NCBI GenBank assembly: GCA_963666735.1 | Contig: OY762926.1 | Coordinates: forward strand, 3,552,001-3,616,000 | DNA length: 64,000 nucleotides | DNA from: Gemmatimonadota bacterium | GTDB lineage: Bacteria > Gemmatimonadota > Gemmatimonadetes > Palauibacterales > Palauibacteraceae | Reading direction: 5' to 3' | In this document: positions 16,095-32,611 of the stretch, in pieces | How the letters are laid out: each line of letters begins with the position of its first letter | Numbering within the stretch: position 1 is the stretch's first letter | Translations under genes and position numbers: made by a program | Notes under the pieces: model-generated | Database searches by the model: none | Told to the model about the DNA's origin: nothing | The model's input: the letters and a program-made list of their open reading frames with translations, nothing else

Positions 16095-17331
16095 TGTACA
16101 AGCACGGTAATCACCTGACACCCGGCTTCGCCGAGGTCAGCGCTTCAGGCTGCGGTCTTCACCTCCTTTTTGGTTGACTTCTTCGGGGTCCTGGGCTTCC
16201 GGATCCCCTTCTTGAACACCTGGTAGGGCGTCCGCCCCTTCATGCCGCGGCCGCGGTGGGGTCGGTTCCGGTTGTAGGTCTCGATGTAGGCGTCGAGATC
16301 CTCCTGCATCTCGCTGACCGACTCGTACCAGGTGGTGCGCCCCTTCACCCTCAGGTGCTCGTCCAGGAGCGTGCGGTGGAAGCGTTCGATGTACCCGTTC
16401 GACTGCGGCCGGCCCACCTGCGTCCTCCGGTGCTCGATCTCCTCGAGCTGGAGGAACAGCTCGTAGGGGTGCCGGTCCTCCCGGCCGCGGAACTCGCGCC
16501 CGTTGTCGCTCAGGACCGTCTCGACCTTCACTCCGTGTTCCTCGAAGAAGGGCAGTACGTGGTTGTTCAGGATCTGGACGGCGGTCACGGGCATCTTCGA
16601 GGTGTAGAGCCGGGCCCACACGTGGCGGCTGAAGCAGCCCGGCACCGTCTGGATGTAGACCTTGCCCACCCCCTTCAGCGTGCCCGCGAAGAAGGTGTCC
16701 ACGGCCACGAGTTCGCCCGTCTTCTTCACCTCGATGTGACGCTCCCGGTACTCGGGGTCGAAGCGCTCCAGCGCCAGGATCTGCTCCTCGGTGAGCTCGA
16801 AGTCGCTCTCACGGACTGTCTTCTCCAGCCTGAGCAGCCGCTCGTGCCTCGTCTTGAGGCCGCCCTCGGATCCACACCCCGCGAACGCCGCCCGAGCTCA
16901 CCTGCACGCCGCGGAGCATCAGTTCGTCGGCCACCCGCTGTGCCCCGTGCGTCGGGTGCGCCAGGGCGTGGGCCAGGATCGCCTCCTCCACCTCCGAGGC
17001 GACCCGGTTCGGGTGAGGGCCTCGAGCCCCCGGCATGCGGTCCAGGAGACCTTCGGCCCCGTACACCTGGAAGTTCCTTCGGATCTCGTAGAACTGCTGT
17101 CGGCTGTAGCCCACGATCCGGCACGCCTTGGAGACGTTGCCCAGTTCCTGAGCGAGTTCTAGCAGCGACAGCTTGCGCCGAGCTATCTTCTCGGCCTGGA
17201 CGGTGGTCATTCTTCTCTCCTCCGTGGTTGTCGAGTTGTTTAGAGCACTTCTCAACTAACCTCGTTGGAGGCCGGGTGGCCACCGTCCCTTTTTTCAGGA
17301 GCAGCTGTCAGGTGATTACCGTATCAGAACA
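16095..17331 (-). mobile_element. IS481-family insertion sequence
   Basis: 26-bp imperfect terminal inverted repeats with TGT..ACA ends: tgtacaagcacggtaatcacctgaca (16095-16120) and tgtcaggtgattaccgtatcagaaca (17306-17331), enclosing a DDE transposase. Confidence 0.9.
16145..17210 (-). pseudogene. IS481-family transposase, frameshifted near 16862
   Basis: N-part MTTVQAEKIARRKLSLLELAQELGNVSKACR (HTH) shifts frame after GGVRGVWIR into GLKTRHERLLRLE...VAVDTF...SDNGREF...NGYIERFHRT (DDE core). Confidence 0.88.
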
Positions 17332-18503
17332 TCCGGCATCGTCCGTTTCAGGTACTGGTCAAAGAGGGGGACGGTGAAGGCCGTGTCCCCGTGGGCGGGG
17401 CTGTAGATCATGCCTTTCCGGATGAGGTTCGAGCGAGTGGGTGCGACCGTCTGCACCAGGCGGTCGAGGACGCCTGCGATCTCCCCGGAGCGGTGGGGGC
17501 CCGGGCCAAGGTCGGCCATGGCGCGCAGGTAGCGCCTCTCGAACGGGGTCGTACGCTCGAAACGTACGCGGAAGAAGGTGCTGTCGAGCTCGCCGATAGC
17601 GAGGGGCGAAGCCGCCTCCACAACGGATCGCGTCACGGTCGGTCCATCGGCGACCGTCCAGCATGCGCTGCCCCACTCCTGGAGGAAGTATGGGTATCCC
17701 TCCGTCATGCGCAGGATTTCTTTGAGGGCGGCCGGGGAGTAGGTGACGCCGAGGCGGCTCGCCGGCGCCTCGAGCGCCTGCTTGGCCGCGTCGTGGGGGA
17801 GCGGACCGATCCGGGGGAACGAGAACATGCGCTCGGCATAGGATTTCGCGACGCCGATGTGGCCCACGAGTTGGGGCAGGCCGGATCCGATGAGCGCGAC
17901 CGGCAGCTGGCGCTGCGCGACCCGGTGCAGGGCCGTGATCAGGGCGCGGAGCTGCCTTTCTGGCACGTACTGCATCTCGTCGATGAAGAGGATGAGCACC
18001 GTCTTTCGGGCGCGCGCCGCCTCGCCCGCGATTTGAAACAGGGCGGTGAGGTCGGTGTCGAGGTCTCCGCTGTCCGCAACGCCTTCTTCCGCGTCCAGAT
18101 CGACGGAGAAGGTGATGTCCTCATAGCTGACCTTCATCGCGCGGACGAACCCGGCCAGCGACCTCCGCGCCTTCCGGGCCAGATCTCTTGCGGCGGCGCT
18201 TCGGCTGAGCTGCAAGAGGGTGGAGTTCAGCGGTCCCGCGAGCGCTGCGGGGAGGGATCGGTCCTCCGGCGCTTCGATCAACACAGACGCAAAACCGCGG
18301 GCTTCGGCATCGAGGAGGATCCGGTTTAGGAGAACCGTCTTTCCGACGCCTGGCAGACCGACCATGAGAAGACTCTTGGCCGCGAGGCCGCCGCGTAGCC
18401 GGTCGAGCGCGATCTCGGCGTCCTCGATCAGTGCGTCGCGGCCCACGAGTTCAGGTGGCGGCGTGCCTGCTCCAGGTGCGTACGGGTTCGTTCGTCGGTC
18501 CAT
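17316..18503 (-). CDS. AAA-family ATPase (AAA_16-like) with C-terminal wHTH; 3' end interrupted by IS481
   Basis: NPYAPGAG...LVGRD, Walker A GLPGVGKT, Walker B LFIDEMQ, GYPYFLQEWG; stop codon lies inside the IS inverted repeat. Confidence 0.88.
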   Translation of the reverse strand: MDRRTNPYAPGAGTPPPELVGRDALIEDAEIALDRLRGGLAAKSLLMVGLPGVGKTVLLNRILLDAEARGFASVLIEAPEDRSLPAALAGPLNSTLLQLSRSAAARDLARKARRSLAGFVRAMKVSYEDITFSVDLDAEEGVADSGDLDTDLTALFQIAGEAARARKTVLILFIDEMQYVPERQLRALITALHRVAQRQLPVALIGSGLPQLVGHIGVAKSYAERMFSFPRIGPLPHDAAKQALEAPASRLGVTYSPAALKEILRMTEGYPYFLQEWGSACWTVADGPTVTRSVVEAASPLAIGELDSTFFRVRFERTTPFERRYLRAMADLGPGPHRSGEIAGVLDRLVQTVAPTRSNLIRKGMIYSPAHGDTAFTVPLFDQYLKRTMPDVLIR

Positions 18504-19882: not shown

Positions 19883-19985
19883 TTCCCCGCTCCTCGGTGA
19901 GGGTCTCGGAAAGTAGGACCGACGAGCCGCGTTTTGGTTCCCCGCCGCCCCGGGAAAGGCGTGTCAGGCGCTGGTGACGGGGGTC

Positions 19986-20534
19986 TCAGACGCCGAGGAC
20001 GGGGCCCGCCAGTGCGCGCAGGTCCCGTCGGTGCTGCGGATCAAGTTGGCGGAGATGCTGGCGGAGCTCGAGCGTTGCGTTGATCGCCCCCCGTACATGG
20101 CCGCCGGAAGACCAGGTGGTCCCGTTCATCGCCGCGCTGAGCCAGTCTTTCACATCGGACCAGCGCCAGAACCTGTACCGGCTGCCGGGGTCATTCGCCG
20201 GCGGCGGAAACCCACCCGGTCCGCGGGCGCCGGTCACCCACAGTCGGACACACTCGCGGGACCGCCCGATACGCGCCGCGATCTCGGACATCGAGAGCAG
20301 GTCCAGATCGTCGACCCGAACTACCCGGAGGCCTTCAACCGACTCGGCATGCGCAATCGCGGATAGAATCGCTGCGTCGAGCTTCGGCGCCTCGCGGGAA
20401 AAATCCATGACCTGGATCCCATCCGTGGTGCCAATGGTCGCATCGTCGCAGCCCGCTTCGTAGAGGGCATCGAACACGTCCGGATCGTGGATATCCACTC
20501 CCTCGACGATCAGCGTAAGGCTATGGGTCGTCAT
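19986..20534 (-). CDS. HicB-like antitoxin with C-terminal HTH (unit D, orphan)
   Basis: MTTHSLTLIVEG...ALYEAGCDDA...MDFSREA...LSMSEIAARIGRSRECVRLW...FPPP...WRWSDV; paralog of units A and B. Confidence 0.75.
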   Translation of the reverse strand: MTTHSLTLIVEGVDIHDPDVFDALYEAGCDDATIGTTDGIQVMDFSREAPKLDAAILSAIAHAESVEGLRVVRVDDLDLLSMSEIAARIGRSRECVRLWVTGARGPGGFPPPANDPGSRYRFWRWSDVKDWLSAAMNGTTWSSGGHVRGAINATLELRQHLRQLDPQHRRDLRALAGPVLGV

Positions 20535-20631
20535 TTCTCTGCTTCCTTTCCTCCTCCGTGATGACGACCATGGGCGGAATGTCTGTGTCTCGGCGGGATC
20601 TGGCGAAGGGACGGTGGTCGAAGGCCGGCGG

Positions 20632-20913
20632 TCAACCCCCGAGGACAGGGCCGGTGAGGGCGCGCACGCCGGATCGATCCTTCGGCTGGGCGATGCGTTC
20701 GACCCGAACGCCTTCAACCGTCTCGATATCTCTGACCGCCGAGAAGATTGCCTCGTCGAGGGTCGCGGCCTCGCGGGTAAAGTCCATGTACTGGGTCCCG
20801 TCCTTGCTTCTGAGCAGGGCGTCGTCGCACCCGGCTTCATACAGGGCGTCGAACACGTCATCCTCGTGGATGTCGCGCCCTTCGATGATGAGCGTGAAGT
20901 CATGGTTTGCCAT
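20632..20913 (-). CDS. Short HicB-like antitoxin lacking the HTH domain (unit C)
   Basis: MANHDFTLIIEG...ALYEAGCDDA...MDFTREA...VERI joined directly to the shared C-terminal tail RALTGPVLGG. Confidence 0.7.
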   Translation of the reverse strand: MANHDFTLIIEGRDIHEDDVFDALYEAGCDDALLRSKDGTQYMDFTREAATLDEAIFSAVRDIETVEGVRVERIAQPKDRSGVRALTGPVLGG

Positions 20914-20927
20914 TCGAAGGTGTCCCC

Positions 20928-21161
20928 TCACCGTGGGTGATCGCATTTTCTGATTGCTTGCCGGAGATGCTTGGCGAAGTTGCCCGGGTTACGCGGCGTC
21001 GACGCGATGGGAATCCGACACCTCGACGTCCCGGCTGACGGGCAGCGCAACTCGCCCCAGCGATGTCCCGATGCCGTCGGTATCACGGTCCAACCGGCTT
21101 TGCGGGCGATGGCCAGCGCCTTCTCGATGTCCTTCTTCGGATGCCTCCGGAGCCTGATCAT
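20928..21161 (-). CDS. HicA-like putative toxin (unit C)
   Basis: 77 aa basic protein: HPKKDIEKAL..ARKAGW..SGHRWG..CP..STPRNP. Confidence 0.7.
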   Translation of the reverse strand: MIRLRRHPKKDIEKALAIARKAGWTVIPTASGHRWGELRCPSAGTSRCRIPIASTPRNPGNFAKHLRQAIRKCDHPR

Positions 21162-21251
21162 GCCCCACGGTGTTGTATCGTGTCAACGCGATATCAACGG
21201 GATAGCATGAAGGAGACGGGAAGGCGGGTCAGGCACCGGGGACGGAGTGGG

Positions 21252-21800
21252 TCAGCCGCCGAGGGCGGACCCGGCCAGGGCGCGCAGGTCCGGGCGGTCC
21301 CGCGGATCGAGTTGGCGGAAGTGGTGGCGAAGTTCGAGCGCCGCGTTGATCGCCGCCCGCAGGTGATCCTGGGATGACCACGGTTCGCCTCCGAGGACTC
21401 CCCTCAGCCAGCCCTCCACGTCGGACCAGCGCCAGAACCGGTACCGGTCGTGAGGACTGTTGAGGGGCGCCGGGAATCCGCCCGGTCCCCGCTTTCCGAG
21501 CACCCACAGCCGGACGCACTCGCGCGAGCGCCCGATCCGGGCCGCGATCTCGGACATCGACACGAGATCGAGGTCCGCGATCCGAACCACCCGGAGACCG
21601 TCGACCGATTCGGCATCCGCGATGGCCGAGGAGATCGCTTCGTAAAAGCTCGCTGCCTTGCGGCTGAAGTCCATGACTGGGATTCCGACGGTGGTTCCGA
21701 TCAGCGCGTCGTCGCAGCCGGCTTCGTAGAGGGCGTCGAACACGTCCGGATCGTGTATATCCACTCCCTCGACGACCAGCGTAAAGCTATGGGTTGTCAT
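21252..21800 (-). CDS. HicB-like antitoxin with C-terminal HTH (unit B)
   Basis: ATG 21800 overlaps the toxin stop (ATGA); same motifs as units A and D. Confidence 0.78.
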   Translation of the reverse strand: MTTHSFTLVVEGVDIHDPDVFDALYEAGCDDALIGTTVGIPVMDFSRKAASFYEAISSAIADAESVDGLRVVRIADLDLVSMSEIAARIGRSRECVRLWVLGKRGPGGFPAPLNSPHDRYRFWRWSDVEGWLRGVLGGEPWSSQDHLRAAINAALELRHHFRQLDPRDRPDLRALAGSALGG

Positions 21801-22048
21801 TTCTTTACGTCCTGTCCTCCTCCGTGAGGGCATCGGCGCACGGTCTCCCGCAGATCTCTGGAATAGTCACCAGGGTTCCGCGGCGTGGAAGCGATGAACT
21901 TCCGGCAGGCGCTCCTTCGGGTCGCCGGGCAGTACATCACGCCCCAGCTATGCCCGGAGGATTTCGGTATGACCGTCCACCCGGCTCTTCGTGCGACGGC
22001 CAGCGCTTTCTCGATGTCCTTCTTCGGATGCCTCGGGAGCCTGATCAT
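21797..22048 (-). CDS. HicA-like putative toxin (unit B)
   Basis: 83 aa paralog with GW..SGHSWG..YCP..STPRNP. Confidence 0.72.
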   Translation of the reverse strand: MIRLPRHPKKDIEKALAVARRAGWTVIPKSSGHSWGVMYCPATRRSACRKFIASTPRNPGDYSRDLRETVRRCPHGGGQDVKK

Positions 22049-22138
22049 GCCCCACGGTGTTGTATCGTGTCAACGCGATATCAACGGGATAGCATGAAGG
22101 AGACGGGAAGGCGGGTCAGGCGCCGGGGACGGAGTGGG

Positions 22139-22687
22139 TCAGCCGCCGAGGGCCGAACCGGCGAGGGCGCGCAGGTCCGGGCGGTCCCGCGGATCGAGTT
22201 GGCGGAAGTGGTGGCGCAGTTCGAGCGCCGCGTTGATCGCCGCCCGCAGGTGATCCCGGGATGACCACGGTTCGCCTCCGAGGACTCCTCTCAGCCAGCC
22301 CTCCACGTCGGACCAGCGCCAGAACCGGTACCGGTCGTGAGGACTGTTGAGGGGCGCCGGGAATCCGCCCGGTCCCCGCTTTCCGAGCACCCACAGCCGG
22401 ACGCACTCGCGCGAGCGCCCGATCCGGGCCGCGATCTCGGACATCGACACGAGATCGAGGTCCGCGATCCGAACCACCCGGAGACCGTCAACCGATTCGG
22501 CATCCGCGATGGCGGAGGAGATCGCTTCGCAGAAGCTCGCAGCTTCGCGGTCGAAATCCATGACCGGGATACCGTTCGTGATGCCTATGGCCGCATCATC
22601 GCATCCGGCTTCGTAAAGGGCGTTGAACACCTGCGGATCGTCCATTTCCACGCCCTCGACGATCAGCGTGAAGCTGTGGGTCGTCAT
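22139..22687 (-). CDS. HicB-like antitoxin with C-terminal HTH (unit A)
   Basis: ATG 22687 overlaps the toxin stop (ATGA); 182 aa. Confidence 0.78.
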   Translation of the reverse strand: MTTHSFTLIVEGVEMDDPQVFNALYEAGCDDAAIGITNGIPVMDFDREAASFCEAISSAIADAESVDGLRVVRIADLDLVSMSEIAARIGRSRECVRLWVLGKRGPGGFPAPLNSPHDRYRFWRWSDVEGWLRGVLGGEPWSSRDHLRAAINAALELRHHFRQLDPRDRPDLRALAGSALGG

Positions 22688-22935
22688 TTCTCGACTTCTC
22701 GTCTCTCTCCGTGATGACATCGGCGCACAACCTGTCGGAGTCGCTTGGCATGATCGACGGGGTTCCGCGGCGTGGACCAGATCGGCATCCGGCAGCGGGG
22801 CGGGACGGTCGCCGGGCAGTACATCACGCCCCAGTTGTGCCCGGAGGATTCCGGTATGACCGTCCACCCGGCTTTGCGGGCGACGTCCAGCGCCTTCTCG
22901 ATGTCTTTCTTCGGATGCCTCCGGAGCCTGATCAT
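22684..22935 (-). CDS. HicA-like putative toxin (unit A)
   Basis: 83 aa paralog with GW..SGHNWG..YCP..WSTPRNP. Confidence 0.72.
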   Translation of the reverse strand: MIRLRRHPKKDIEKALDVARKAGWTVIPESSGHNWGVMYCPATVPPRCRMPIWSTPRNPVDHAKRLRQVVRRCHHGERREVEK

Positions 22936-22940
22936 GCCCC

Positions 22941-22966
22941 ACGGTGTTGCGTCGTGTCAACACCGT
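22941..22966. promoter_or_regulatory. Candidate antitoxin operator (inverted repeat); degenerate copies at 22054-22079 and 21167-21192
   Basis: acggtgttg-N8-caacaccgt perfect 9-bp inverted repeat 5 nt upstream of the toxin ATG; the left arm and caac core are conserved before the other two toxins. Confidence 0.55.
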
Positions 22967-23042
22967 ATCAACAGGCATTCGCGAGCGAATGGCATGGTCG
23001 TCGAGCGACTGCCCGGCGTCGCGCATCGTCGACTGCTTCGCG

Positions 23043-23507
23043 TCAGCCTTTCTCGTCTCTGCCAAAGCGGCGCGCGAGCCAGCTGTCCAGGCTCAGATGG
23101 TCGTTCTCGAACAGGATGAGGACGATGACGAGCAGCAGCGTGCGCGGGATCACGTGCGCGCTGAAGACATAGAGCGGTTCGGCGAGCAGGTGGCCGAAGG
23201 TGACGAGGATGAGGACGCCGCCCAGCCCCAGCGCGGCGGCCTCGCGCCGCCAGCCCACCAGCATCAGCGCCCCGCAGACCAGTTCCACGAACGGGATCGC
23301 GACCCCGGCGGCCCACAGCGACCAGGCGGGGAGGAACGTGTCGGCGTAGGCCTCCACGAACAGACCCCGCGCGTGCTGGACGGCCCCGAGTTCGAACACC
23401 TTCCAGAACCCGGCCATGAAGAAGATGAGGCCAAGGATGGTCCGCGCCACGAATGCGGCCCAACTCTTCGGTGCGACTACGCCCGGCGGAGTTCGGCCCG
23501 GCGTCAT
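23043..23507 (-). CDS. DoxX family membrane protein
   Basis: ARTILGLIFFMAGFWK...PFVELVCGALMLVG...LSLD; four hydrophobic segments. Confidence 0.85.
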   Translation of the reverse strand: MTPGRTPPGVVAPKSWAAFVARTILGLIFFMAGFWKVFELGAVQHARGLFVEAYADTFLPAWSLWAAGVAIPFVELVCGALMLVGWRREAAALGLGGVLILVTFGHLLAEPLYVFSAHVIPRTLLLVIVLILFENDHLSLDSWLARRFGRDEKG

Positions 23508-25771
23508 CTCGCCTTGTCCGGCGTCTTGCCCGGCGCGGCCGAGACCGCCGCCGCCAGCCGTGCGATGAGGGAGAGGGGCGCTTCATCCCGCTCGCCGGCG
23601 GGCGCGAGCCGCACAAGGGAACGCATGCGGGACACATCCTCGGCGTACTCCGCGAGCCGCCGCTCGTAGCTGGCCCGGTTCTTGGTGCAGATCAGCGTAT
23701 AGGGACGGCCCCGGCGCTCGGTCACATGGTAGAGGTCGAGACCGTGGTCGTCGATCTGGCGGTGCAGGTGGCGGCGCAGATCCTTCCGCAGCGGGAAGCG
23801 CGCCGAGCGGGCGGCGGAGTCTTCGCAGAATGCGCGGAGGTTGGCGCAGTGCTCGCAATCGCACGAAAAGTTCGCCGCGACCGTCCGGTCGCGCGGAGCC
23901 ACCGGCGGCTCGGAACTGCGCGCGAGGAGGGCATCCGCCGCCACCCGCCACAGGTACGCGTAGGCATCCGTGTCGGCCACGCCTTCGCGTTCCCGCATGT
24001 CGGCCAGCGCCGCCGGGAGCACGCGCTCGGGGGCTACCTCCTCCGGATGGCCGGCGATCGCGCGAGCCGCCGTCTCGGCCTCCTCCGCAAGCCCGAAGCG
24101 GTGGGCCAGGATCAACAGATCTCGCACCGCCTCGCGGTCGAACGGCTCGGCGGGCGGCTGGTAGAAATTCGGTGTCGGCCGGGTGTCGGCCGCCCGGGCG
24201 CCAAACGCGGCGGGCAGGCCGAGCAGTACCGCTCTCACGCCGTCCCGCGCCACGTCGCACCACGCCGCCGCCGGAGCGCCGCCCGGCGTCTCGCCGACGA
24301 GAGCGAGGAACGATGGGACCGCCTTCGGACGGAGCGCGAGGTGTTCCCGCACGAGGGCGGACACCACGTCGGCGGCGGCCGCCGGCCCGAGCATGCCCAT
24401 GACGTCGGCCAGGGCTTCGTTCTCGCTGCCGTCGTAGCGCGGGAGAACGACGCGGCGCGCGAAGCGTGCGACGCTCTCGGCGTCGTCCGCCGCTGCGAGG
24501 AAGCGAAGCATTTCCGCCCGTCCGGCGCCATCGCTGTGGCCGCTCGCCACGATGTCCACCGTCTTGGAGCGAGCCCAAACCACGAACGCGGCCAGACGAT
24601 ATGTAAGCGTCAGCGAGGCCCCTTCGTTGCCGGTCGATTCCTCCAGACGCCGCTCATCCGGCTCGGCGTCGTCGAGCGCATCCCGGGGCAGGAGTTCGAG
24701 GTCGTTGAGCGGCACATGCCCGAACGGCGGGCGGCTCCCGTCCCGCGCGCTCCACCCATCGAGCCTCCGCCAGACCTTGCTCACCTCCTCGAATTCCGAA
24801 TCGCTGTGTTCGGCCTCCCACGAGCCGCCCCATCCGCCATCGTGTACGTTCAGCAAGGGCAGGCCGAATTCATCGATGTGGAGAACCGCCGCGTGCAGTT
24901 CGCAGCCCGCCCGGTCCGCGGCGGGTGACAGAACGCGCGCCCGGGTCGCGTCGACCCCCTTCAGCGCCTCGAAGGACAATCCTTCCTCGCTGTATTCGTG
25001 ATCGAGAACCCACACGAGCTTGTCCGTCACCCCCTCCTTCCGCCAAGCCGACAGACTCTCGGCGGCCCGGTCGGCCAGAGCGGCATAGTCGGGCGCCAGC
25101 GGCGGCGACTCGCCCGCGGAGCGGAGACACAGGTTGAAGACGAGCGATATCCGGTACCCGCCGGTCACGGGCCGCACCTCGTGCGGGCAGTCGGCGTAGA
25201 ACGCCGCGAAGGCCACCTCCGATGGTTCCTCCGCGTTCATGTCGAAGACGGTTTCGCGGTTGCCGTGGCGAACGACCAGTTCGCCCCCGGCGCCATGCAC
25301 CGGTAGGGAGACGGACAGCGTCCCGACCATGCCGTCGCTTTTTTCCGTATCGCGGTGCGTCGAAAAGAAGCCTCCGGGCTCGTAGACGAGCAGTTTGTAG
25401 AGTTCGGCGTCGAGGAGGTCGGAAGAGAGACCGAGGCCGCGCGCGACGCGGTCCATGACCTCGTCAAGGGAAACCCGCCATCCCCGGCCGGCAAGGTGGA
25501 TCTTGTCGGCGTCGATCTGCCGGCAGTCGCGGACCGAAGTGTCCACCAGCGTCTTCGGTCCCTTTCCGTACGGCGCGCGGTGCGAGGCGGCGACCAGCGC
25601 CCGTAACTGGGATTCGGGCACGGGAAACGACAGGTCGCCGACGCCCTCCACGGCAAGTACCGGCATCGCCGCGTAAAGCCGCCCGCCGACGCAATAGTCG
25701 CCTGGGCGTTTGATCGAGAGGAGAAACTCCTCCAATCCGCCATCGTTCAAACCGTGTTCGCTGTCGGCCAT
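23504..25771 (-). CDS. Large 2OG-Fe(II) oxygenase superfamily protein
   Basis: APYGKG..TLVDTSVR, LYKLLVYEPGGFF..HRDTEK (HxD), AFYADCPHEVRPVTGGYRISL (distal His and Arg); C-terminal CxCxxC; start ATG 25771. Confidence 0.85.
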   Translation of the reverse strand: MADSEHGLNDGGLEEFLLSIKRPGDYCVGGRLYAAMPVLAVEGVGDLSFPVPESQLRALVAASHRAPYGKGPKTLVDTSVRDCRQIDADKIHLAGRGWRVSLDEVMDRVARGLGLSSDLLDAELYKLLVYEPGGFFSTHRDTEKSDGMVGTLSVSLPVHGAGGELVVRHGNRETVFDMNAEEPSEVAFAAFYADCPHEVRPVTGGYRISLVFNLCLRSAGESPPLAPDYAALADRAAESLSAWRKEGVTDKLVWVLDHEYSEEGLSFEALKGVDATRARVLSPAADRAGCELHAAVLHIDEFGLPLLNVHDGGWGGSWEAEHSDSEFEEVSKVWRRLDGWSARDGSRPPFGHVPLNDLELLPRDALDDAEPDERRLEESTGNEGASLTLTYRLAAFVVWARSKTVDIVASGHSDGAGRAEMLRFLAAADDAESVARFARRVVLPRYDGSENEALADVMGMLGPAAAADVVSALVREHLALRPKAVPSFLALVGETPGGAPAAAWCDVARDGVRAVLLGLPAAFGARAADTRPTPNFYQPPAEPFDREAVRDLLILAHRFGLAEEAETAARAIAGHPEEVAPERVLPAALADMREREGVADTDAYAYLWRVAADALLARSSEPPVAPRDRTVAANFSCDCEHCANLRAFCEDSAARSARFPLRKDLRRHLHRQIDDHGLDLYHVTERRGRPYTLICTKNRASYERRLAEYAEDVSRMRSLVRLAPAGERDEAPLSLIARLAAAVSAAPGKTPDKAR

Positions 25772-25890
25772 GCGTCTCCCCTGTCCCAAATCGAAATTCG
25801 AGCGACAAGGATGATGCTGGACGGCGCGCCACGCGACCTGTTCCGCCATCCCGCGCTCGGATTCGACGGCTGAGACCGGCTTCACTCCTC

Positions 25891-25952
25891 TTGCATCCCG
25901 TTTCGAACCGCCTAGATTGGCCGGTCCAATTTTCGGTTTTTCTTCGATTTTT
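25891..25952 (+). promoter_or_regulatory. Candidate sigma70 promoter and operators for imuB-dnaE2
   Basis: TTGCAT-N16-TAGATT; overlapping palindrome ATTGG-N5-CCAAT (25916-25930); TTCG-N7-TTCG direct repeat (25932-25946) in an AT-rich patch. Confidence 0.4.
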
Positions 25953-25968
25953 GGATGGAAAGGGTCGC

Positions 25969-27267
25969 ATGGACGCAGGTCGCGGGAGCCGGATGGCGCT
26001 CTGCCTCTGGTGGCCGGGGTTCGAGCTGGAACTGGAGCGGGTCCGGACGCCGCCGCTCGCGGACCAGCCGCTCGCACTGCCGGCGGTGGGGGACCGCCGC
26101 CGCATCGAGATGGGGTGCGCGCTCGCGGCCTCCTTCGGGGTCGAGCCGGGGATGATCGTCTCGCAGGCGATCGCGCTCTGCCCCTCGCTCGTCCTCTGCG
26201 AACCGGACCCGGATTTCCACGACGCGGCGCGCGACCGGATCGCGGAAGTCCTCCGCGGCTGGAGTCCGGTCGTCGAGCGGTCGGCGGACCGGGGACGGTT
26301 CTTCGTCGGGGTCGACGGACTCGAACGGCTGTACGGTCCGCCGGAGCGCCAGATCGCGGGGCTCCGGGCGAAGCTCGAGGCGTTGTCGCCGTGGCTCGCG
26401 TCGAGCGCGCGGGTCGGCTACGCGCCGGGGAAGTTCGCGGCGTGGGTCGCGGCGCGGTCCGTGGAGTCCGCCCGGTCGGCGGGGTTGGTGGAGCCCGGGC
26501 GGGCGGGCGCGGACGTCTGCGTGGCGGCGGCCGATCTGGCCGCGTTTCTGGCGCGGCAGCCGGTCGAAGTGCTGCCGGTGTCGCCGCGCATGACCGGGCG
26601 GCTGAAGCGGCTCGGGGTCGGGCGGCTCGGGCAGCTGGTCCGCATTCCCGAGCCGGCGCTCGTGTCGCAGTTCGGGGCCGATGGGCGCCGGGCGTTCGCC
26701 TGGGCGCGAGGGTCGCGCATCGACCGTGTGCGGCCGGAGGCGCCGGCCCGGCCGATCCGCGTCGCGCTCGATTTTCCGAGCCCGATCGGGCAGCTCGAAC
26801 TGCTGCACGCCGCGCTCGACCGGCTCATCGGTCGCGCGCTCGAGCATCCGCGTCGGCGAGGCAAGAGCGTCCGCGGCCTCAGGGTGTCGGCGAGCCTCGA
26901 GGATGGCGGCTCCTGGTCCATACGCGCGATTGCCCGGGAACCCACGAGCGAGCCCGAACGGCTCGGGGCGTTCCTCCGCTCTCGGATCGCGCTCGACCGG
27001 CCCCGGCGCGCGGTCGAGACGCTGCGGCTCGAACTCTTCCGCTTCGGCCCGGCGAGCGCGCAGACCGGGCTCTTCGACCCGAAGGAAGGCGCGCCCCGCG
27101 CCTTCGGTTCGCTGGAGACGAAGGATGGCGAATTGCTGCCCGTGTTCCGGCGCGCAGCGCGCGTGCTGCGGCTGCGGCTGGGAGGCTCCGCGCTGTACCG
27201 GGTGCTCGAACTCGAGCCGAACTCCAGGCTCCCCGAGCGTCGGCATGCGCTCATGGAAATCGCGTAG
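25969..27267 (+). CDS. imuB: ImuB-like catalytically inactive Y-family polymerase
   Basis: GVEPGM..SQAIALCPSL, WSPVVE, FFVGVDGLERLYG, LKRLGV..LGQL, QTGLF clamp-binding-like motif, SRLPERR tail; Y-family catalytic acidic motifs absent. Confidence 0.8.
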   Translation: MDAGRGSRMALCLWWPGFELELERVRTPPLADQPLALPAVGDRRRIEMGCALAASFGVEPGMIVSQAIALCPSLVLCEPDPDFHDAARDRIAEVLRGWSPVVERSADRGRFFVGVDGLERLYGPPERQIAGLRAKLEALSPWLASSARVGYAPGKFAAWVAARSVESARSAGLVEPGRAGADVCVAAADLAAFLARQPVEVLPVSPRMTGRLKRLGVGRLGQLVRIPEPALVSQFGADGRRAFAWARGSRIDRVRPEAPARPIRVALDFPSPIGQLELLHAALDRLIGRALEHPRRRGKSVRGLRVSASLEDGGSWSIRAIAREPTSEPERLGAFLRSRIALDRPRRAVETLRLELFRFGPASAQTGLFDPKEGAPRAFGSLETKDGELLPVFRRAARVLRLRLGGSALYRVLELEPNSRLPERRHALMEIA

Positions 27268-27273
27268 CCGTCC

Positions 27274-27576
27274 GTGGCGAAACCCGGTGTGGCGCCGAGA
27301 ACGCCGAGACCGAAGCCGCCCGCGGGGAAGCTGCGTCCGCTCAACCGGCCGCGGCCGGTGCGGGTCCGGCTCGGCGGCGCCGGGGTGCCCGTGAGCCTCG
27401 AGATCCGGGGGCGCTGGCGGCGGATTGGCGACGTGCTCGACCAGTGGCGGATCGATGACGAGTGGTGGAGGGAACCGATCTCGCGCGCCTACTTCTCGAT
27501 CGTGCTCGAGAACGGCGCCTACCTCACCGCGTACCACGATCTGATAATGGATCGCTGGTTCCTGCAGCCGGAATAG
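27274..27576 (+). CDS. Small conserved mutasome-cassette protein (DUF6504-like)
   Basis: LRPLNRPRPVRV...LDQWRIDDEWWREPISRAYF...YHDL..WF, resembling the ImuB C-terminal domain. Confidence 0.75.
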   Translation: MAKPGVAPRTPRPKPPAGKLRPLNRPRPVRVRLGGAGVPVSLEIRGRWRRIGDVLDQWRIDDEWWREPISRAYFSIVLENGAYLTAYHDLIMDRWFLQPE

Positions 27577-27617
27577 CCGCCGTGGACGCCAGGCCGCTCC
27601 CGGACGTTCCTTCGCGC

Positions 27618-30600
27618 ATGGCCTCGCCGCCGTTCGCAGTCCCCCGGGGGGCCGTCGACTACGTCGAACTGCATGCGCACTCCGCCTACTCCTTTCTCGA
27701 TGGGGCGTCGCGGCCAGAGGAACTCGCGGCGCGCGCGCTCGAACTGGGCTATCCCGCGCTCGCGCTCACCGACCACGACGGGCTGTACGGTTCGATGGAG
27801 TTCGCGCGCTTCGCCCGCGCCCATGGGCTGCAGCCGATCACGGGTGCCGAACTCACCCTCGCCTCGCCGTTCGCCGCCGCCGAACGCACTGAAGGACACG
27901 GGGGAGAGCACAGGGGAGCCGCCGGCGACGTTCCCGCGGGAACGTCCGGAGGCCGCGCGCTGGCGGGACGGGCGGCGAAAACGGCCGACTGTCACGTTAC
28001 GGTGCTGGCGGAGAATGCGACGGGGTACGCGAACCTGTGCCGGCTCATCACGCGGGCGCACATGAAGAGTCCGCGCGGGGAGCCTCGGCTCGACCTCGAT
28101 GCGCTCCTCGAACGGCCGGAGGGACTCATCCTCCTCAGCGGGTGCCGCCGGAGTCCCCTCCTGGCGGCGCTGGAGCGGGGGACGGACGAGGCCGAACGGC
28201 TGGCCGGGCGCCTGCGCGACGCGTTCGGTCCCGGCAACCTCTTCGTCGAACTCCAGAACAACGCGGTCCACGGCGACCTCGCGCGCGGCCGGGCGTTGGG
28301 GGCGCTGGCCGACCGGCTCCGCATCCCCGTCGTGGCCACGGGCAACGTCCACTACCACGTCGCGGACCGGCACCGTCTTCAGGACGTCATGGTCGCGATC
28401 CGGAACCGGACGACGGTCGACGATTCGCACGCGCTCCGCCGCGCCAACGCCTGCTTCCACCTCGCCTCGCCCCGGGAGATGGCGTGGCGCTTCGCGTCGC
28501 GGCCCGACGCGCTCCGCAACACGCGGGCGATCGCCGAGCGCTGCCAGGCGTTCGATCTTACTGCCGACCTCGGCTACCGCTTTCCCGACTTCAACGGGAG
28601 CGGCTTCGCCCCCGCCATGCGGGTGCTTCACCAAGTATGCCGCCGGGCATTCGAAACCCGATATCCCCCCGAAAGCGAATACCGGCAGGAAGCCGAAGGG
28701 CGGCTCGCGGCCGAACTCGCGCTCGTCGACCGCCACGACCTGGCCGGGTTCTTCCTCGTCTACCACGACATCCTCGAACTGGCCCGCGAGGTCGCGCACC
28801 GCGTGCGGGGCGACTCGATGCCGCGCCAACTACTCCCGCCCGGGCGCGGTCGCGGGTCCTCCGTCTCCTCCATCATCTGTTATCTGATCGGACTGTCCCA
28901 CGTGGATCCGGTGCGGACGAACCTCTTCCTCGGCCGCTTCCTGAACGACGCCATGGGAAGCGTCCCGGATATAGACATCGATTTTGCGCGCGATATTCGG
29001 GAGGAGCTGATCCTCGCCGTCTATGAGCGCTACGGGTACGACCACGTCGGGCTCGTGTGCACCTTCCCCACCTATCGCACGCGCTCGACCGTGCGCGAAC
29101 TGGGGAAGGTGCTCGGCCTCCCGGCCGGCGACGTGGAGAAACTGGCCAAGCTCGCCGAGCCGGGAGAGGACGGGTTCATGGCCGAACTGGAACGCATCCC
29201 CGGCCTCGAGGCGCGCGCGAACGCGAGGATCTGGCAGGTATTCGCCGAACTGGCCGAGGAGATCAGGGGGCTCCCGCGGCACATCTCCCAGCACGTGGGC
29301 GGGATGATCATCTCGAGCCGGCCGCTGGTGGAGATCGTCCCGCTCGAGCCCGCCGCGTGGGAGGGACGCGTCCTCTGCCAGTGGGACAAGGACTCCTGCG
29401 ACGACGCGGGGTTCATCAAGATCGACTTTCTTGCGCTCGGGATGATGTCGCTCGTCGAGGAGGCGGTGGAGACGATCCACGCGCGCCACGGCGAGATCCC
29501 GGATCTGTCCCGCATCGACTACGAGGACGAGGCGATCTACGACCGCATCTGTTCGGGAGACACGGTGGGCCTCTTTCAAGTCGAGAGCCGCGCGCAGATC
29601 CAGATGCTGCGGCGGGTGCGGCCCCGGAATCTGGCCGACCTCGCGGTGCAGGTCGCGATCGTACGCCCGGGCCCGATCGTGGGCGGAGCGGTGAACCCCT
29701 ACGTCCGGCGGCGCGAGAAGCTTCGCAAGGACCCGGACTACGTCGTCCCCTACGACCATCCCCTGCTCGAGGAGGCGCTCGGCGAGACCTTGGGCGTGAT
29801 CATCTTTCAGGACCAGGTGCTCCAGGTGTGCAAGGCGCTCGCGGGCTTCAGCGACGGGCAGGCGGAGGGACTGCGGCGTGCCATGAGCCGCAAGCGTTCG
29901 CGCGAGGCACTGCTGGAGTACTGGGAGGCGTTCCGCGACGGCGCGGCGGGGAAGGGGGTCGGCGGCCCCACGGCGAAGAAAGTGTTCGAGCAGGTCGTCG
30001 CGTTCTCGGAGTTCGGGTTCCCGAAGTCGCACGCGGTGGCGTTCGGGCTTCTCGCCTTTCAGTCCGCCTGGCTGCGCGACCGCTATCCGGCCGAGTACTA
30101 CGTGGGGCTCTTCAACAACCAGCCGATGGGGTTCTACTCGCTCGACGCGATCGGGCGCGACGCGCGCCGGCACGGGGTCGGCGTCCGGCTGCCGGACCTG
30201 AACGCCAGCCAGGTCGCCTGCACCGCCGAGGGAGACGATGTCCGGATCGGGCTCGGCATGGTCCGCGACTGGGGGTCCGAGGCGGCCGAACTCGTGGTGG
30301 CCGAGCGCGAGCGCGGCGGACCGTTCGCGTCGCTCCCGGACTTCCTTCGCCGCACCCCGGCCGCGCTCAAGCGGGCCGCGGTCGAGAACCTGGTCTGGGT
30401 CGGCGGGCTCGATGCGCTGGGGATCGAACGCCGCGACCTGCTGTGGCAGACGGGGCTCTGGCTGGGTCCGGAGGTCGAGACGGAGGCGGAGCGCCGGCGC
30501 CGCGAACTCGCGACGAGCGCCGCGGGGCTGGGCGGGGAAGCGCCGCCGGTGCGGGGCCGGCGCAGCACCGACCGCTCGGACCAGGGCCAGATCGAACTCT

Positions 30601-31334
30601 CGCTCGACGACCCGTACGCGGACCTCCGCTTCGGGGGCACGCACGACATGGAGAAGATGATCGCGGAGTACCGCATCCTCTCCCTCGCCGCCTCGCTGCA
30701 CCACCCGTTCGCGCTCGTGGGCGACCACCTGCCCGAACGCACGGTCTCATCGGCCCGTTTCGTCGATCTCCCCAACGGGAGCGAGGTCCGGGTGGCGGGG
30801 ATCGTGGTCGCCCGCCAGCGCCCGCACACGGCCAAAGGCTACATCTTCATCCTCATGGAGGACGAATTCGGGCCCATCAACGCGATCGTGAGGCCCGAGG
30901 TATACCGGGAATGCCGCGCCGCGATCCGCCTCGAACCCTTCCTCTACATCGATGGCGCGCTTCAGAAGGACGGCGCGACGTACAACGTGCTCGCCGAGGG
31001 GGTCTATCCCCTGCGCCTGAGCCCCGAACTCCGGCTGGGCCGCGAGACGATCCCCCCAGTGGAAGGAGAAGCGGACACGGCCGTCGCTCCGGTCGATCTC
31101 GATGTTGCGGCGGAGAGCTCGGTCGAGACGGCTGCCGAGACGCCATCCGAGGTGTCGCCCGACACGCGAGCAGAGCCGCGCCGCCCGGGCTCCCCGAACC
31201 GGATCGCCGCCGCCAACCGGGTCGCGGCCGTGGCCAATGGACTCGCCGGACCCGATCCGTTCGCATACCTGGAGGCGCTACGGCGCGATCCGCCCCCGAC
31301 CATGAGCTGGGGCCGCGGCGGAGGCTGCCGGTGA
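27618..31334 (+). CDS. dnaE2: Error-prone DNA polymerase DnaE2
   Basis: PHP ELHAHSAYSFLDGAS/TDHDG, GRGSS, PDIDIDF, PRHISQHVGG, KIDFLALG, FGFPKSHA, NNQPMGFY, RQRPHTAKG. Confidence 0.93.
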   Translation: MASPPFAVPRGAVDYVELHAHSAYSFLDGASRPEELAARALELGYPALALTDHDGLYGSMEFARFARAHGLQPITGAELTLASPFAAAERTEGHGGEHRGAAGDVPAGTSGGRALAGRAAKTADCHVTVLAENATGYANLCRLITRAHMKSPRGEPRLDLDALLERPEGLILLSGCRRSPLLAALERGTDEAERLAGRLRDAFGPGNLFVELQNNAVHGDLARGRALGALADRLRIPVVATGNVHYHVADRHRLQDVMVAIRNRTTVDDSHALRRANACFHLASPREMAWRFASRPDALRNTRAIAERCQAFDLTADLGYRFPDFNGSGFAPAMRVLHQVCRRAFETRYPPESEYRQEAEGRLAAELALVDRHDLAGFFLVYHDILELAREVAHRVRGDSMPRQLLPPGRGRGSSVSSIICYLIGLSHVDPVRTNLFLGRFLNDAMGSVPDIDIDFARDIREELILAVYERYGYDHVGLVCTFPTYRTRSTVRELGKVLGLPAGDVEKLAKLAEPGEDGFMAELERIPGLEARANARIWQVFAELAEEIRGLPRHISQHVGGMIISSRPLVEIVPLEPAAWEGRVLCQWDKDSCDDAGFIKIDFLALGMMSLVEEAVETIHARHGEIPDLSRIDYEDEAIYDRICSGDTVGLFQVESRAQIQMLRRVRPRNLADLAVQVAIVRPGPIVGGAVNPYVRRREKLRKDPDYVVPYDHPLLEEALGETLGVIIFQDQVLQVCKALAGFSDGQAEGLRRAMSRKRSREALLEYWEAFRDGAAGKGVGGPTAKKVFEQVVAFSEFGFPKSHAVAFGLLAFQSAWLRDRYPAEYYVGLFNNQPMGFYSLDAIGRDARRHGVGVRLPDLNASQVACTAEGDDVRIGLGMVRDWGSEAAELVVAERERGGPFASLPDFLRRTPAALKRAAVENLVWVGGLDALGIERRDLLWQTGLWLGPEVETEAERRRRELATSAAGLGGEAPPVRGRRSTDRSDQGQIELSLDDPYADLRFGGTHDMEKMIAEYRILSLAASLHHPFALVGDHLPERTVSSARFVDLPNGSEVRVAGIVVARQRPHTAKGYIFILMEDEFGPINAIVRPEVYRECRAAIRLEPFLYIDGALQKDGATYNVLAEGVYPLRLSPELRLGRETIPPVEGEADTAVAPVDLDVAAESSVETAAETPSEVSPDTRAEPRRPGSPNRIAAANRVAAVANGLAGPDPFAYLEALRRDPPPTMSWGRGGGCR
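27927..27946. repeat. 20-bp perfect palindrome (parS-like), copy 1, inside dnaE2
   Basis: gacgttcccgcgggaacgtc; encodes DVPAGTS in a low-complexity insertion of the PHP domain. Confidence 0.7.
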
Positions 31335-31439
31335 CGCCGGTTTCCTAATGGCCGACATGTCGTGCCCTCCCCTAAATTGGGATGGCGAATGCTGACTCCG
31401 AGAACGCCGCGTGGCGCTCCGTCGTGGAGGAGATCGAAC

Positions 31440-31565
31440 ATGAATGAACGGAATATCGCGGCCGAGGTGCTTGAGGGGCTCCGGGAAGCCCGGGAGCACC
31501 GGGCGGGAAAGCTCAGCCTTCGAACCATCCGGCTTCCAGAGCCGCTGCCCGGGCTCTCGCCCGGA
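31440..31565 (+). pseudogene. XRE/HigA-like antitoxin, N-terminal fragment
   Basis: MNERNIAAEVLEGLREAREHRAGKLSLRTIRLPEPLPGLSP breaks off before the HTH; preceded by GGAGG and an overlapping ...RSVVEEIEHE* tail. Confidence 0.6.
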
Positions 31566-31864
31566 GTGGCCTCGAGCGTCTCCAGCCAGCGACAGCCGTG
31601 CGCTGGTACATCGGGTGACCCGGTCATGCCTTCGGGGCACATGTCGAACCTCTCGACGCGCAGGCGGTAGCTGGAGTCGTGCGCGGGCTGGAAGCCCACG
31701 ACCTCGCCGCGGTAGGGGGTGCCGTTGACGACCTTGCAGTACCCGGGGTAGCCATCGTCGCACTCGACCCGGTGACGATCGATGGTGATCTCCTCTTCCG
31801 TGCCCGCCGCCTCTGTTCTCGAGACGACTTCGCTCAGAACGTACTGGCCATCGGCATACCGGTT
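31559..31864 (-). pseudogene. Duplicated 3' fragment of the DUF4377 gene (direct repeat of 32618-32923)
   Basis: About 305-bp colinear near-identical match at offset 1059; NRYADGQYVLSEVVS...WLETLEATPG. Confidence 0.85.
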
Positions 31865-31918
31865 TCCGTGTTGCCCGCACGCTTTCCCGCCGGAACCGGC
31901 GGCCGCCACGCGGTCAGT

Positions 31919-32179
31919 TCACTCGAGTGGAGCGATCCTGCCAGGGGCCTCGTGACTTCGTGCGCGGTTCCATGCGGCCAGCAGTTCCGCTTGGTGGAGG
32001 GACGCCCACTCAACCACGAAGCCGAGCGCCCGGGGTGGAAGGCGTCCCCTCAGCACGGAGAAATCCTCGATGCCGATCACGGCTTCTGCGCCGCTGTACT
32101 CGGCATGGAAGTGGGCAGGACCGTGCTCCCGAAAATACATGCGAATGACGATGCCGTAGAACCGGCAGACTTCAGGCAT
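31919..32179 (-). CDS. DUF4160 family putative toxin
   Basis: MPEVCRFYGIVIRMYFREHGPAHFHAEY...GRLPPRAL..VVEWA..HQAELLAAW. Confidence 0.88.
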   Translation of the reverse strand: MPEVCRFYGIVIRMYFREHGPAHFHAEYSGAEAVIGIEDFSVLRGRLPPRALGFVVEWASLHQAELLAAWNRARSHEAPGRIAPLE

Positions 32180-32456: not shown

Positions 32457-32520
32457 CGATCTCTCGTCCTCCATTCTGATGCTCCGTCCGTACCATGCCC
32501 CGAACATACTAGAAACCGGG

Positions 32521-32598
32521 CGCATCCGGCGGAATCACCGCGTGAAACTGATGGCGCGGAAGTACCCCGACACGCTCGACCGGCTGGCGTCGCTATAG
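32521..32598 (+). pseudogene. XRE/HigA-like antitoxin, C-terminal fragment
   Basis: ...VKLMARKYPDTLDRLASL* resembles the C-terminal tail of the family whose N-terminus lies at 31440. Confidence 0.5.
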
Positions 32599-32611
32599 GC
32601 ACGGTGCGGAA

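What the first reader, a model, noticed from the sequence alone, without database searches (positions are those of the whole stretch)
19951..22975. Tandem array of paralogous HicA-like/HicB-like-HTH toxin-antitoxin cassettes with an exact 887-bp period
Seen: three small basic genes (starts 22935, 22048, 21161), each followed by a HicB-like gene (ATGA-coupled in units A and B), plus a fourth orphan antitoxin. Each unit carries its own copy of the upstream element. Established: HicAB are type II TA systems, usually single loci. Inference: an expandable cassette array of one TA family giving several specificities, possibly for anti-phage sensing. I do not know a description of such an array; it is the best candidate for a new system here.
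Basis: partly seen in the sequence, partly recalled or inferred. Interest (0 to 1): 0.82.

Follow-up and report, generated by a model that had tools for sequence, protein, structure and literature searches.

The report
Stacked toxin-antitoxin alleles with swappable cores
A marine bacterium carries four different versions of one predicted toxin-antidote gene pair stacked head to tail at a single chromosomal site, and the stretch coding for the parts that likely touch each other varies as one block between near-identical flanks, so it likely moves as a unit by recombination: a natural series for testing how toxin-antidote matching diversifies.

Summary
The array is real: three small basic genes exactly 887 bp apart, each with its own palindromic upstream element and a downstream partner, plus an orphan fourth partner. 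Contigs from several sequencing studies and arrays in four related assemblies make an assembly error unlikely. The pair is not a new family: it matches PADLOC's untested candidate PDC-M06A/B, and a homologue on phage Cyrano is already annotated HicA/HicB. The toxin is weakly HicA-like (predicted fold, conserved His). The antitoxin is predicted to be a ferredoxin-like domain plus an excisionase-type winged helix, not HicB, and unit C's partner lacks the helix. What I found undescribed is the organisation. The units are different allele types, not copies. Divergence sits in one ~300-bp block (toxin C-half plus antitoxin N-domain) that co-varies across the genus, ignores the host tree and is decoupled from the antitoxin's own C-half. 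Toxins are lost while antitoxins stay. Best reading: specificity cassettes swapped and stacked by homologous recombination, likely favoured because plain replacement would free the resident toxin. Toxicity, specificity and phage defence are untested. New variant of a known kind; interest 0.52.

The parts
22997..23044 (-). 5' stub of a nucleotidyltransferase (MNT) gene; relatives carry an MNT or MNT-HEPN pair at this spot
   Evidence: blastn to the MNT starts of G020 (92% over 48 nt) and G003; Pfam NTP_transf_2 and HEPN on the G013 pair
22946..22961 (-). Unit A palindrome GTTG-N8-CAAC containing a TTGACA box; predicted operator
   Evidence: TTGAC in 32 of 47 upstream regions of outgroup homologues
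22684..22935 (-). Toxin-like gene A (alpha type), 83 aa, PDC-M06A, predicted HicA-like fold
   Evidence: (E 2.6e-23)
22523..22818 (-). Variable block of unit A: toxin codons 40 to end plus antitoxin codons 1-55
22139..22687 (-). Antitoxin-like gene A, 182 aa, PDC-M06B; predicted ferredoxin-like N-domain, Xis-type winged HTH, helical tail
   Evidence: (E 1.7e-22)
22049..22138 (-). Inter-unit spacer J1 (post-antitoxin flank joined to the next upstream element; palindrome at 22059-22074)
   Evidence: 99% identical to the B/C spacer region and 92% to a G013 junction
21797..22048 (-). Toxin-like gene B (beta type), 83 aa
   Evidence: E 2.9e-19
21636..21931 (-). Variable block of unit B
   Evidence: 78 of 311 positions differ from unit A in 21625-21935 against 7 of 373 in 21252-21624
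21252..21800 (-). Antitoxin-like gene B, 182 aa
   Evidence: PDC-M06B E 2.5e-22
21162..21251 (-). Second copy of spacer J1 (palindrome at 21172-21187)
20928..21161 (-). Toxin-like gene C, 77 aa
   Evidence: E 2e-19; pN 0.06-0.09 against pS 0.45-0.52 versus its G008 counterpart
20632..20913 (-). Short antitoxin-like gene C, 93 aa: N-domain only, DNA-binding part deleted in frame; also present in G008, G017 and L120
   Evidence: N-domain pN 0.04 against pS 0.34 versus G008
20531..20565 (-). 3' remnant of a deleted toxin gene, supplying the start region of the orphan antitoxin
   Evidence: 92% over 36 nt to the toxin 3' end of G026
19986..20534 (-). Orphan antitoxin-like gene D (delta type), 182 aa; its intact toxin partner is present in G013
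   Evidence: (93% to G013 unit 3)

Best explanation
This is a head-to-tail stack of four different alleles of one predicted type II toxin-antitoxin pair (PADLOC family PDC-M06), likely assembled by homologous recombination with relatives' versions of the same chromosomal site. The toxin is predicted to be a HicA-like RNase with an added Cys3-His site. The antitoxin is predicted to bind it through a ferredoxin-like N-domain and to repress the upstream palindrome through an excisionase-type winged helix. The gene order puts the two interface-coding halves side by side in one ~300-bp block between conserved DNA (upstream element and toxin start on one side, antitoxin C-half on the other). A crossover in the conserved flanks therefore moves a matched toxin-half and antitoxin-half together, and once an inter-unit junction exists the array can grow, shrink or swap blocks. 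Inferred driver: each toxin is neutralised best by its own antitoxin, so replacing the resident allele would free its toxin, whereas stacking, or keeping orphan antitoxins, is tolerated (addiction and anti-addiction among alleles). Shown: anatomy, family, mosaic block, co-variation, copy-number variation, toxin-first loss. Predicted: folds and binding. Inferred: recombination route, specificity, toxicity, selective driver.
For: Mosaic: units A and B differ at 78 of 311 positions in the block and 7 of 373 in the antitoxin C-part (borders set after seeing the data). Across 16 intact pairs, toxin C-half and antitoxin N-domain identities correlate (Mantel r 0.66, p 2e-4); neither correlates with the equally adjacent antitoxin C-part (r 0.04 and 0.01). 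Block types are scattered on a tree of the flanking imuB gene (5, 3 and 3 changes for 5, 3 and 3 genomes). One same-type pair (G013 unit 2, G014) has block pS 0.031 against host pS 0.248 (p 1.3e-5), pointing to lateral exchange. None of the 5 arrays (G000, G013, G017, G008, L120) holds one type twice (types assigned by eye). Two junction types are shared across assemblies, J1 in G000 twice and G013, J2 in G013 and L120. Toxin helix 2 and antitoxin residue 46 track each other in 18 of 18 pairs (Asp46 with the 7 alpha toxins, Ser/Ala46 with the 5 Asp65 toxins, Gly46 with 4 gamma, Thr46 with 2 C-type). Toxin is deleted or broken with the antitoxin kept in G006, G028, G012, G013 unit 1, G017, G008, L120 and unit D here; all 17 toxin matches in 41 genomes lie directly before an antitoxin match. 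Toxin model alpha-beta-beta-beta-alpha; 4 of the top 6 structural matches are HicA-family chains (Z 4.0-4.5, rmsd 3.0-4.0, 58-60 aligned); His33 aligns with the HicA GSH His. Complex prediction: weak support, score 0.40 against best control 0.01, contact agreement at least 89%, partner pLDDT at least 71; the mark was reached by 116 of 157 solved and 2 of 215 mismatched pairs, but at 0.60 or under by 18 of 157 solved and both mismatches.
Against: Nothing functional was tested. HicA likeness is weak: Z under 5 is within background, the top match is unrelated (PafA), Foldseek gave no hit at E 0.001, no Pfam HicA hit in 121 homologues, hhalign probability only 24%. Block co-variation can arise without co-adaptation, because divergence itself suppresses crossovers inside the block. 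Only 1 of 10 valid same-type comparisons shows block pS significantly below host pS; 3 show it significantly above, which fits an old ancestral array with differential loss as well. The five arrays are not independent (G000, G017 and L120 share the A-C-D layout). L120 unit 1 and G035 are recombinant inside the block, so it is not inviolable. No recombinase-independent route was observed directly, and whether this genus takes up DNA is not known here.
Confidence: 0.5

Rival explanations
1. An anti-phage array: each unit is an abortive-infection module and the variable block diversifies what triggers it or helps it escape phage-encoded antitoxins, so stacking widens phage coverage.
For: Family is a PADLOC phage defence candidate. 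For single-copy homologues elsewhere, 30 of 147 nearest ORFs (19 of 38 loci) hit PADLOC at E 1e-12, or 22 of 147 (13 of 38 loci) after dropping 8 doubtful housekeeping or transposon-ATPase-like hits. HicA domains are proposed as anti-phage (PMC10865869). The toxin C-half has the highest pN/pS of the unit (0.245/0.50 between types). Homologues occur on SSU5-like phages and plasmids.
Against: The 145 PDCs are stated to be untested. 0 of 31 other window ORFs hit PADLOC (one window is a weak control). Frequent toxin loss with antitoxin kept is not what selection for defence predicts. pN never exceeds pS. This rival shares the cassette mechanism and differs only in the driver; both may hold.
Confidence: 0.22
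2. A neutral by-product: this genus stacks alternative alleles at many sites, the units cross-neutralise, and the array is simply transient and decaying.
For: Two earlier AI notes report integrase-free stacking elsewhere in this genome (unchecked leads). 15 of 18 related genomes with the gene have one antitoxin only, and 17 of 35 genus members gave no match. Arrays in G017, L120 and G013 hold broken genes.
Against: All types are under purifying selection, including the short antitoxin and toxin C. Residue co-variation between toxin helix 2 and the antitoxin hairpin. Junctions carry no stubs of the flanking doxX-like or NHL genes by short-word blastn and are reused across assemblies.
Confidence: 0.19
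3. Not a toxin-antitoxin pair: a small metal-binding protein modulating an excisionase-like regulator.
For: PHROG 2620 is labelled excisionase and transcriptional regulator; N-domain resembles HMA/ACT domains (Z up to 7.7); 21 of 76 outgroup loci lack an intact small gene.
Against: One-sided loss of the small gene, translational coupling, HicA-like topology with conserved His33, no metal-binding CxxC motif in the large protein, no integrase seen beside the array.
Confidence: 0.06
4. Misassembly of strain variants into a false tandem.
For: Units A and B share about 450 nearly identical bases; no laid contig spans the whole array; only assembled contigs, no raw long reads, were available. One or more of the runs may be the source sample.
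Against: All 4 runs (4 studies) hold pieces of units A, B, C and D at 99% or more; single contigs span NHL gene to toxin C (X1, X9) and all of unit A into the unit B upstream element (X13, X8). The A/B-shared 454-nt piece has 1.5-2 times the depth of the unique blocks in 3 of 4 runs (33 vs 19-22; 17 vs 8-11; 60 vs 37-40; contig depth is not a copy number). Four other assemblies have arrays, and G013 shares the junction.
Confidence: 0.03

Closest known systems
PADLOC phage defence candidate PDC-M06A/B (Payne et al., 10.1101/2024.01.29.577857; passages read, supplements closed)
   Same: All three toxins hit PDC-M06A (E 2e-19 to 3e-23) and all four partners PDC-M06B (E 8e-13 to 2e-22), same order
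   Different: Single copy in 76 of 76 outgroup loci, 322 of 322 plasmid records and 15 of 15 other matching genomes of a phylum sample; here a mosaic array. The paper's main text does not name M06.
CYRAN_51/CYRAN_50 of E. coli phage Cyrano, annotated 'HicA toxin protein' and 'putative antitoxin HicB' (PMC9928086; passages read)
   Same: Same family (hhalign 99.8%, PDC-M06A/B hits); listed there among expressed prophage morons
   Different: One copy; the passages I saw give an annotation only, no functional test
HicAB classes 1 and 3 (Gerdes 2024, PMC10865869; parts 1-2 of 7 read, plus term search)
   Same: Small alpha-beta-beta-beta-alpha toxin upstream, coupled antitoxin, palindromic operator; forms with and without a DNA-binding domain, like units A/B and unit C
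   Different: Antitoxin N-domain predicted ferredoxin-like rather than partial RNase H; Xis-type winged helix; toxin has a Cys3-His set; the terms cysteine, zinc, ferredoxin, excisionase and paralog do not occur in that text
Polymorphic toxin-immunity cassette arrays (CdiA/Rhs orphans; PMC3482391 search listing only, details recalled)
   Same: Variable toxin C-part and cognate immunity part are adjacent and exchanged by recombination in conserved flanks
   Different: No secretion signal or carrier; intracellular, self-contained units with their own upstream element; same toxin fold in every unit
Tandem type I TA repeats of E. coli (LDR, SIB; recalled; PMC2943612 search listing only)
   Same: Tandem paralogous TA units with largely cognate-specific antitoxins
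   Different: RNA antitoxins; here a protein pair with a swappable interface block

Membership tests
PDC-M06 (PADLOC) | HMM match of gene A and gene B, adjacent and in order | tested here: met
PDC-M06 (PADLOC) | Anti-phage activity | not testable with these tools
   Stated as untested for all 145 PDCs
HicA toxins | alpha-beta-beta-beta-alpha dsRBD-like topology | tested here: met
   AF2 model H10-21 E25-31 E34-39 E49-53 H59-72, mean pLDDT 79; a prediction
HicA toxins | Significant structural or profile homology to HicA | tested here: inconclusive
   4 of top 6 VIA matches are HicA-family chains but Z 4.0-4.5, rmsd 3.0-4.0, 58-60 aligned; hhalign P 8e-4, probability 24%, reversed control 0.3%
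HicA toxins | Conserved His at the beta1-beta2 turn | tested here: met
   His33 conserved in at least 90% of 121 homologues and aligned with the GSH His of 21 Pfam-HicA proteins; its catalytic role in HicA is recalled
HicA toxins | Pfam PF07927 match | tested here: not met
   Not among the 25 families shown for 121 members at E 0.1; the family search of this genome found 3 other HicA genes but not these
HicA toxins | RNase activity and growth arrest | not testable with these tools
   needs expression assay
HicB antitoxins | N-terminal partial RNase H order beta-beta-beta-alpha-beta | tested here: not met
   The model's element order is E2-11 H18-26 E32-37 E40-49 H52-64 E70-75 at pLDDT 84-95 for residues 1-70; rests on the predicted topology, not on absence from a hit list
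HicB antitoxins | C-terminal DNA-binding domain (HTH or RHH) | tested here: met
   Residues 76-138 match excisionase/BldC-type winged helices, Z 6.1-7.2, rmsd 2.1-2.6 for most, 52-58 aligned; absent in unit C
Type II TA systems | Direct toxin-antitoxin binding | tested here: inconclusive
   Weak support, 0.40 against best control 0.01
Type II TA systems | Bicistronic coupling with an upstream palindrome | tested here: met
   ATGA overlap in units A and B; palindrome before each toxin; binding not tested
Integron or transposon cassette arrays | Adjacent integrase and recombination sites between units | tested here: inconclusive
   No integrase among the neighbours scanned; an rve-type IS lies 2.7 kb away and was seen in 1 of 18 related loci; spacers were not tested against attC models

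The most novel reading that the evidence does not exclude
A polymorphic, self-compatible type II TA locus: a HicA-like toxin with a non-HicB ferredoxin-fold antitoxin, whose interface-coding halves form one recombination cassette. At least five mutually insulated specificity types circulate among species of one genus, and addiction makes cells stack alleles and keep orphan antitoxins instead of replacing them, much as compatibility loci do.
Probability: 0.3. Interest if true: 0.75.

Novelty: new variant of a known kind. Interest (0 to 1): 0.52.

Why it matters
How toxin-antitoxin pairs gain new specificities without passing through a lethal mismatch is usually studied by mutating single pairs. 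Here about 20 natural pairs of five types sit at one orthologous site, 65-93% alike, with a candidate co-varying contact (toxin helix 2, antitoxin residues 46-48), natural recombinants, an HTH-less form and orphan antitoxins. That gives a ready neutralisation matrix and a test of addiction against phage defence as the driver. It would also give the widespread, uncharacterised PDC-M06 family (1069 proteins at 50% clustering) its first function and add a predicted non-HicB antitoxin fold for a HicA-like toxin.

Tried and rejected
Pfam and NCBIfam gave no HicA/HicB hit. PDB sequence searches with single proteins and profiles gave nothing significant; the flavivirus envelope rows are chance-level. 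Foldseek gave no match at E 0.001 for either model. No HicB chain appears among the 50 VIA rows for the antitoxin and hhalign to a small, noisy set of genes downstream of Pfam-HicA hits was null; neither excludes the family alone. ESM Atlas: toxin best 0.89, third row named HicA at 0.88, a lead only; antitoxin clusters have no common Pfam. Tandem Repeats Finder cannot see an 887-bp period. No terminator-like site. Positive selection was not found: pN stays below pS in every block. The G003/G024 row is invalid (imuB frame broken in my extraction) and was dropped. L119 was left out of the paired statistics because my pattern missed its toxin, which is intact and gamma type. The one RNA run (X20) gives only scattered, diverged contigs, so expression is not shown. 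The metagenome scan gave only 3 loci. Ten paper searches found no paper naming PDC-M06 or describing such an array; the library lacks most subscription papers, and the closed bioRxiv supplement of Payne et al. may annotate M06. 'PDC-M06' was also absent from the DefensePredictor supplements searched. Look-ups of earlier findings by sequence, relatives and words were blank. A Pfam scan of a nearby duplicated gene pair was not completed.
Full report
Observation. The minus strand of 19986-22975 carries three toxin-like genes (starts 22935, 22048, 21161) and four partner genes. The toxins are 65-70% identical, the full-length partners 72-93%. The third partner is a 93-aa form with the middle deleted in frame. 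The fourth has no toxin, only about 35 bp of a toxin 3' end. A GTTG-N8-CAAC palindrome precedes each toxin and occurs nowhere else in the window (3 found, 0.31 expected). The genome is one 3.98-Mb contig with no further copy. Close homologues are named Candidatus Palauibacter by their sources, and several runs holding the stretch are labelled sponge metagenome, so the host is likely a sponge-associated Gemmatimonadota.

Is it real? Contigs of 8 of the 24 listed runs were laid. In the 4 runs (4 studies) pieces of every unit are present at 99% or more. Single contigs run from the NHL gene to toxin C and across all of unit A into the unit B upstream element. The piece shared by A and B has about 1.5-2 times the depth of the unique blocks in 3 of 4 runs. 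No contig spans the whole array, depth is not copy number, and a source sample may be among the runs. Independently, 3 of the 18 related genomes with the gene (G013, G017, G008) and metagenome locus L120 also have arrays.

Family. Pfam and NCBIfam are silent, but PADLOC assigns the genes to PDC-M06A and PDC-M06B and PHROGs to 5923 and 2620. PDCs are 145 untested defence candidates (Payne et al., passages read). A homologous pair on phage Cyrano is annotated HicA toxin and putative HicB. The toxin family has 1069 representatives at E 0.001. The pair itself is therefore catalogued, though I found no functional study in ten searches.

Folds. The toxin model is alpha-beta-beta-beta-alpha. Four HicA-family chains rank in the top six of 48,161, but at Z 4.0-4.5, within background. 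His33 aligns with the HicA GSH histidine at low profile probability. Cys40, Cys48 and Cys73 are at least 90% conserved and His75 is invariant in the 19 closest homologues, suggesting a metal site (inference). The antitoxin model has a beta-alpha-beta-beta-alpha-beta N-domain matching HMA/ACT/RAM ferredoxin-like domains (best Z 7.7, rmsd 2.5, 67 aligned) and a winged helix matching excisionases and BldC (Z up to 7.2). HicB's N-domain is described as beta-beta-beta-alpha-beta (PMC10865869), so 'HicB-like' fails on predicted topology. Complex prediction of antitoxin A (1-80) with toxin A gave weak support: 0.40 against a best control of 0.01; at 0.60 or under the mark was reached by 18 of 157 solved pairs and both of the 2 of 215 mismatches that passed.

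Distribution. The gene was found in 18 of 35 other genus members and 0 of 25 other relatives, always at one site after a doxX-like gene next to imuB-dnaE2. Of the 18, 10 have one intact pair, 3 an antitoxin with the toxin deleted, 2 only remnants and 3 arrays. Four genomes without the gene have the close doxX orthologue with an empty or otherwise filled site. Seven of 18 carry an MNT gene there, five with HEPN, and the window keeps an MNT stub, so the site is a TA hotspot. Outside the genus every case is single: 76 of 76 loci (from the best 80 of 448 confirmed hits, 21 of 64 parts scanned, 4-kb flanks, 4 own-group loci set aside), 322 plasmid records with one place each, and 15 of 15 other matching genomes among 251 of the phylum.

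Mosaic structure. Units A and B differ at 78 of 311 positions from toxin codon 40 to antitoxin codon 55 but 7 of 373 in the rest of the antitoxin. Synonymous divergence is 0.40-0.50 in the block and 0.02-0.11 in the C-part, so old blocks sit in recently shared flanks. Across 16 intact pairs the two halves of the block co-vary (r 0.66) while neither tracks the antitoxin C-part (0.04, 0.01). Five block types appear (alpha, beta, gamma, delta, C; assigned by eye; beta, C and delta are well-supported groups, alpha and gamma only partly resolved), each found at first, inner or sole position. Types do not cluster on the imuB tree, and two C-part lineages combine with different blocks. One pair shows block pS far below host pS (0.031 against 0.248), but three show the reverse, so both lateral exchange and collapse of older arrays probably contribute. 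Toxin helix 2 and antitoxin residue 46 track each other in 18 of 18 pairs, with Arg65/Gln68 opposite Asp46/Glu48 in most alpha pairs and Asp65/Glu68 opposite Ser46/Lys or Arg48 in beta pairs; this looks like a charge swap but kin share both. No array repeats a type. Two junction sequences are reused across assemblies, giving periods of 887 and 902 bp.

Mechanism. Shown: the anatomy and patterns above. Inferred: rare illegitimate joins created inter-unit junctions; after that, ordinary homologous crossover in the conserved flanks can insert, delete or swap whole toxin-half/antitoxin-half blocks without mismatching partners. If types are insulated, as is typical for paralogous type II pairs (PMC7354431, passages), replacing the resident allele would free its toxin, which favours stacking and retained orphan antitoxins. 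One-sided toxin loss fits this. Phage defence is the main rival driver: homologues elsewhere often neighbour defence genes (30 of 147 ORFs, 22 after dropping doubtful hits), but 0 of 31 window ORFs do (ORFs picked by a crude filter, long ones cut to 450 aa). A neutral reading is supported by earlier unchecked notes of allele stacking elsewhere in this genome.

Regulation. The palindrome is conserved across phyla, often twice around a leaderless promoter. Here the best sigma-70 match places its -10 box on the toxin ATG in all three units (3 found, 0.4 expected). That promoter would yield antitoxin only, recalling the E. coli hicAB P2 transcript. The toxin N-half is nonetheless under purifying selection (pN 0.035, pS 0.25), so toxin is likely made from another start. 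This is speculative.

Verdict. Observation confirmed; interpretation partly supported. Known candidate family, apparently undescribed polymorphic array. New variant of a known kind; interest 0.52; best explanation 0.5; bold case 0.3 probability, 0.75 interest.

Noticed in passing
window 23504-26077 (-): A large 2OG-Fe(II) oxygenase-domain gene between the doxX-like gene and imuB is full length in only 2 of 18 related loci (G013, G010); the other 16 keep a 5' stub of about 60 codons overlapping the imuB upstream region.
   Followed up: partly
window 25891-31334 (+): imuB-like (IMS) and dnaE2-like genes, an SOS mutagenesis cassette, flank the hotspot; imuB is present at all 18 related loci.
   Followed up: partly
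L021:6355-7108 and equivalents in L024, L026-L029, L035, L125: An MNT-HEPN toxin-antitoxin pair occupies the same site in relatives, in several as MNT alone or remnants: the same pattern of toxin loss.
   Followed up: partly
window 31004-33718 (-): Two related lipoprotein-like ORFs share a 307-bp segment at 93% identity about 1060 bp apart, with an unrelated small ORF between: possibly another stacked duplication.
   Followed up: no
window 16145-17255 (-): An rve-type insertion sequence in two ORFs, and next to it an AAA ATPase (17316-18503) whose homologue directly follows the antitoxin in G026.
   Followed up: no
L032 (G006), toxin start to antitoxin: Toxin deletion leaves the first toxin codons fused in frame to the antitoxin; near-identical deletions occur in G028 and G012.
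   Followed up: partly
L044, L051 and L056, L064: Single PDC-M06 homologues sit beside type I-G CRISPR-Cas genes and type I restriction-modification genes in sponge-associated Actinomycetota-like genomes.
   Followed up: no
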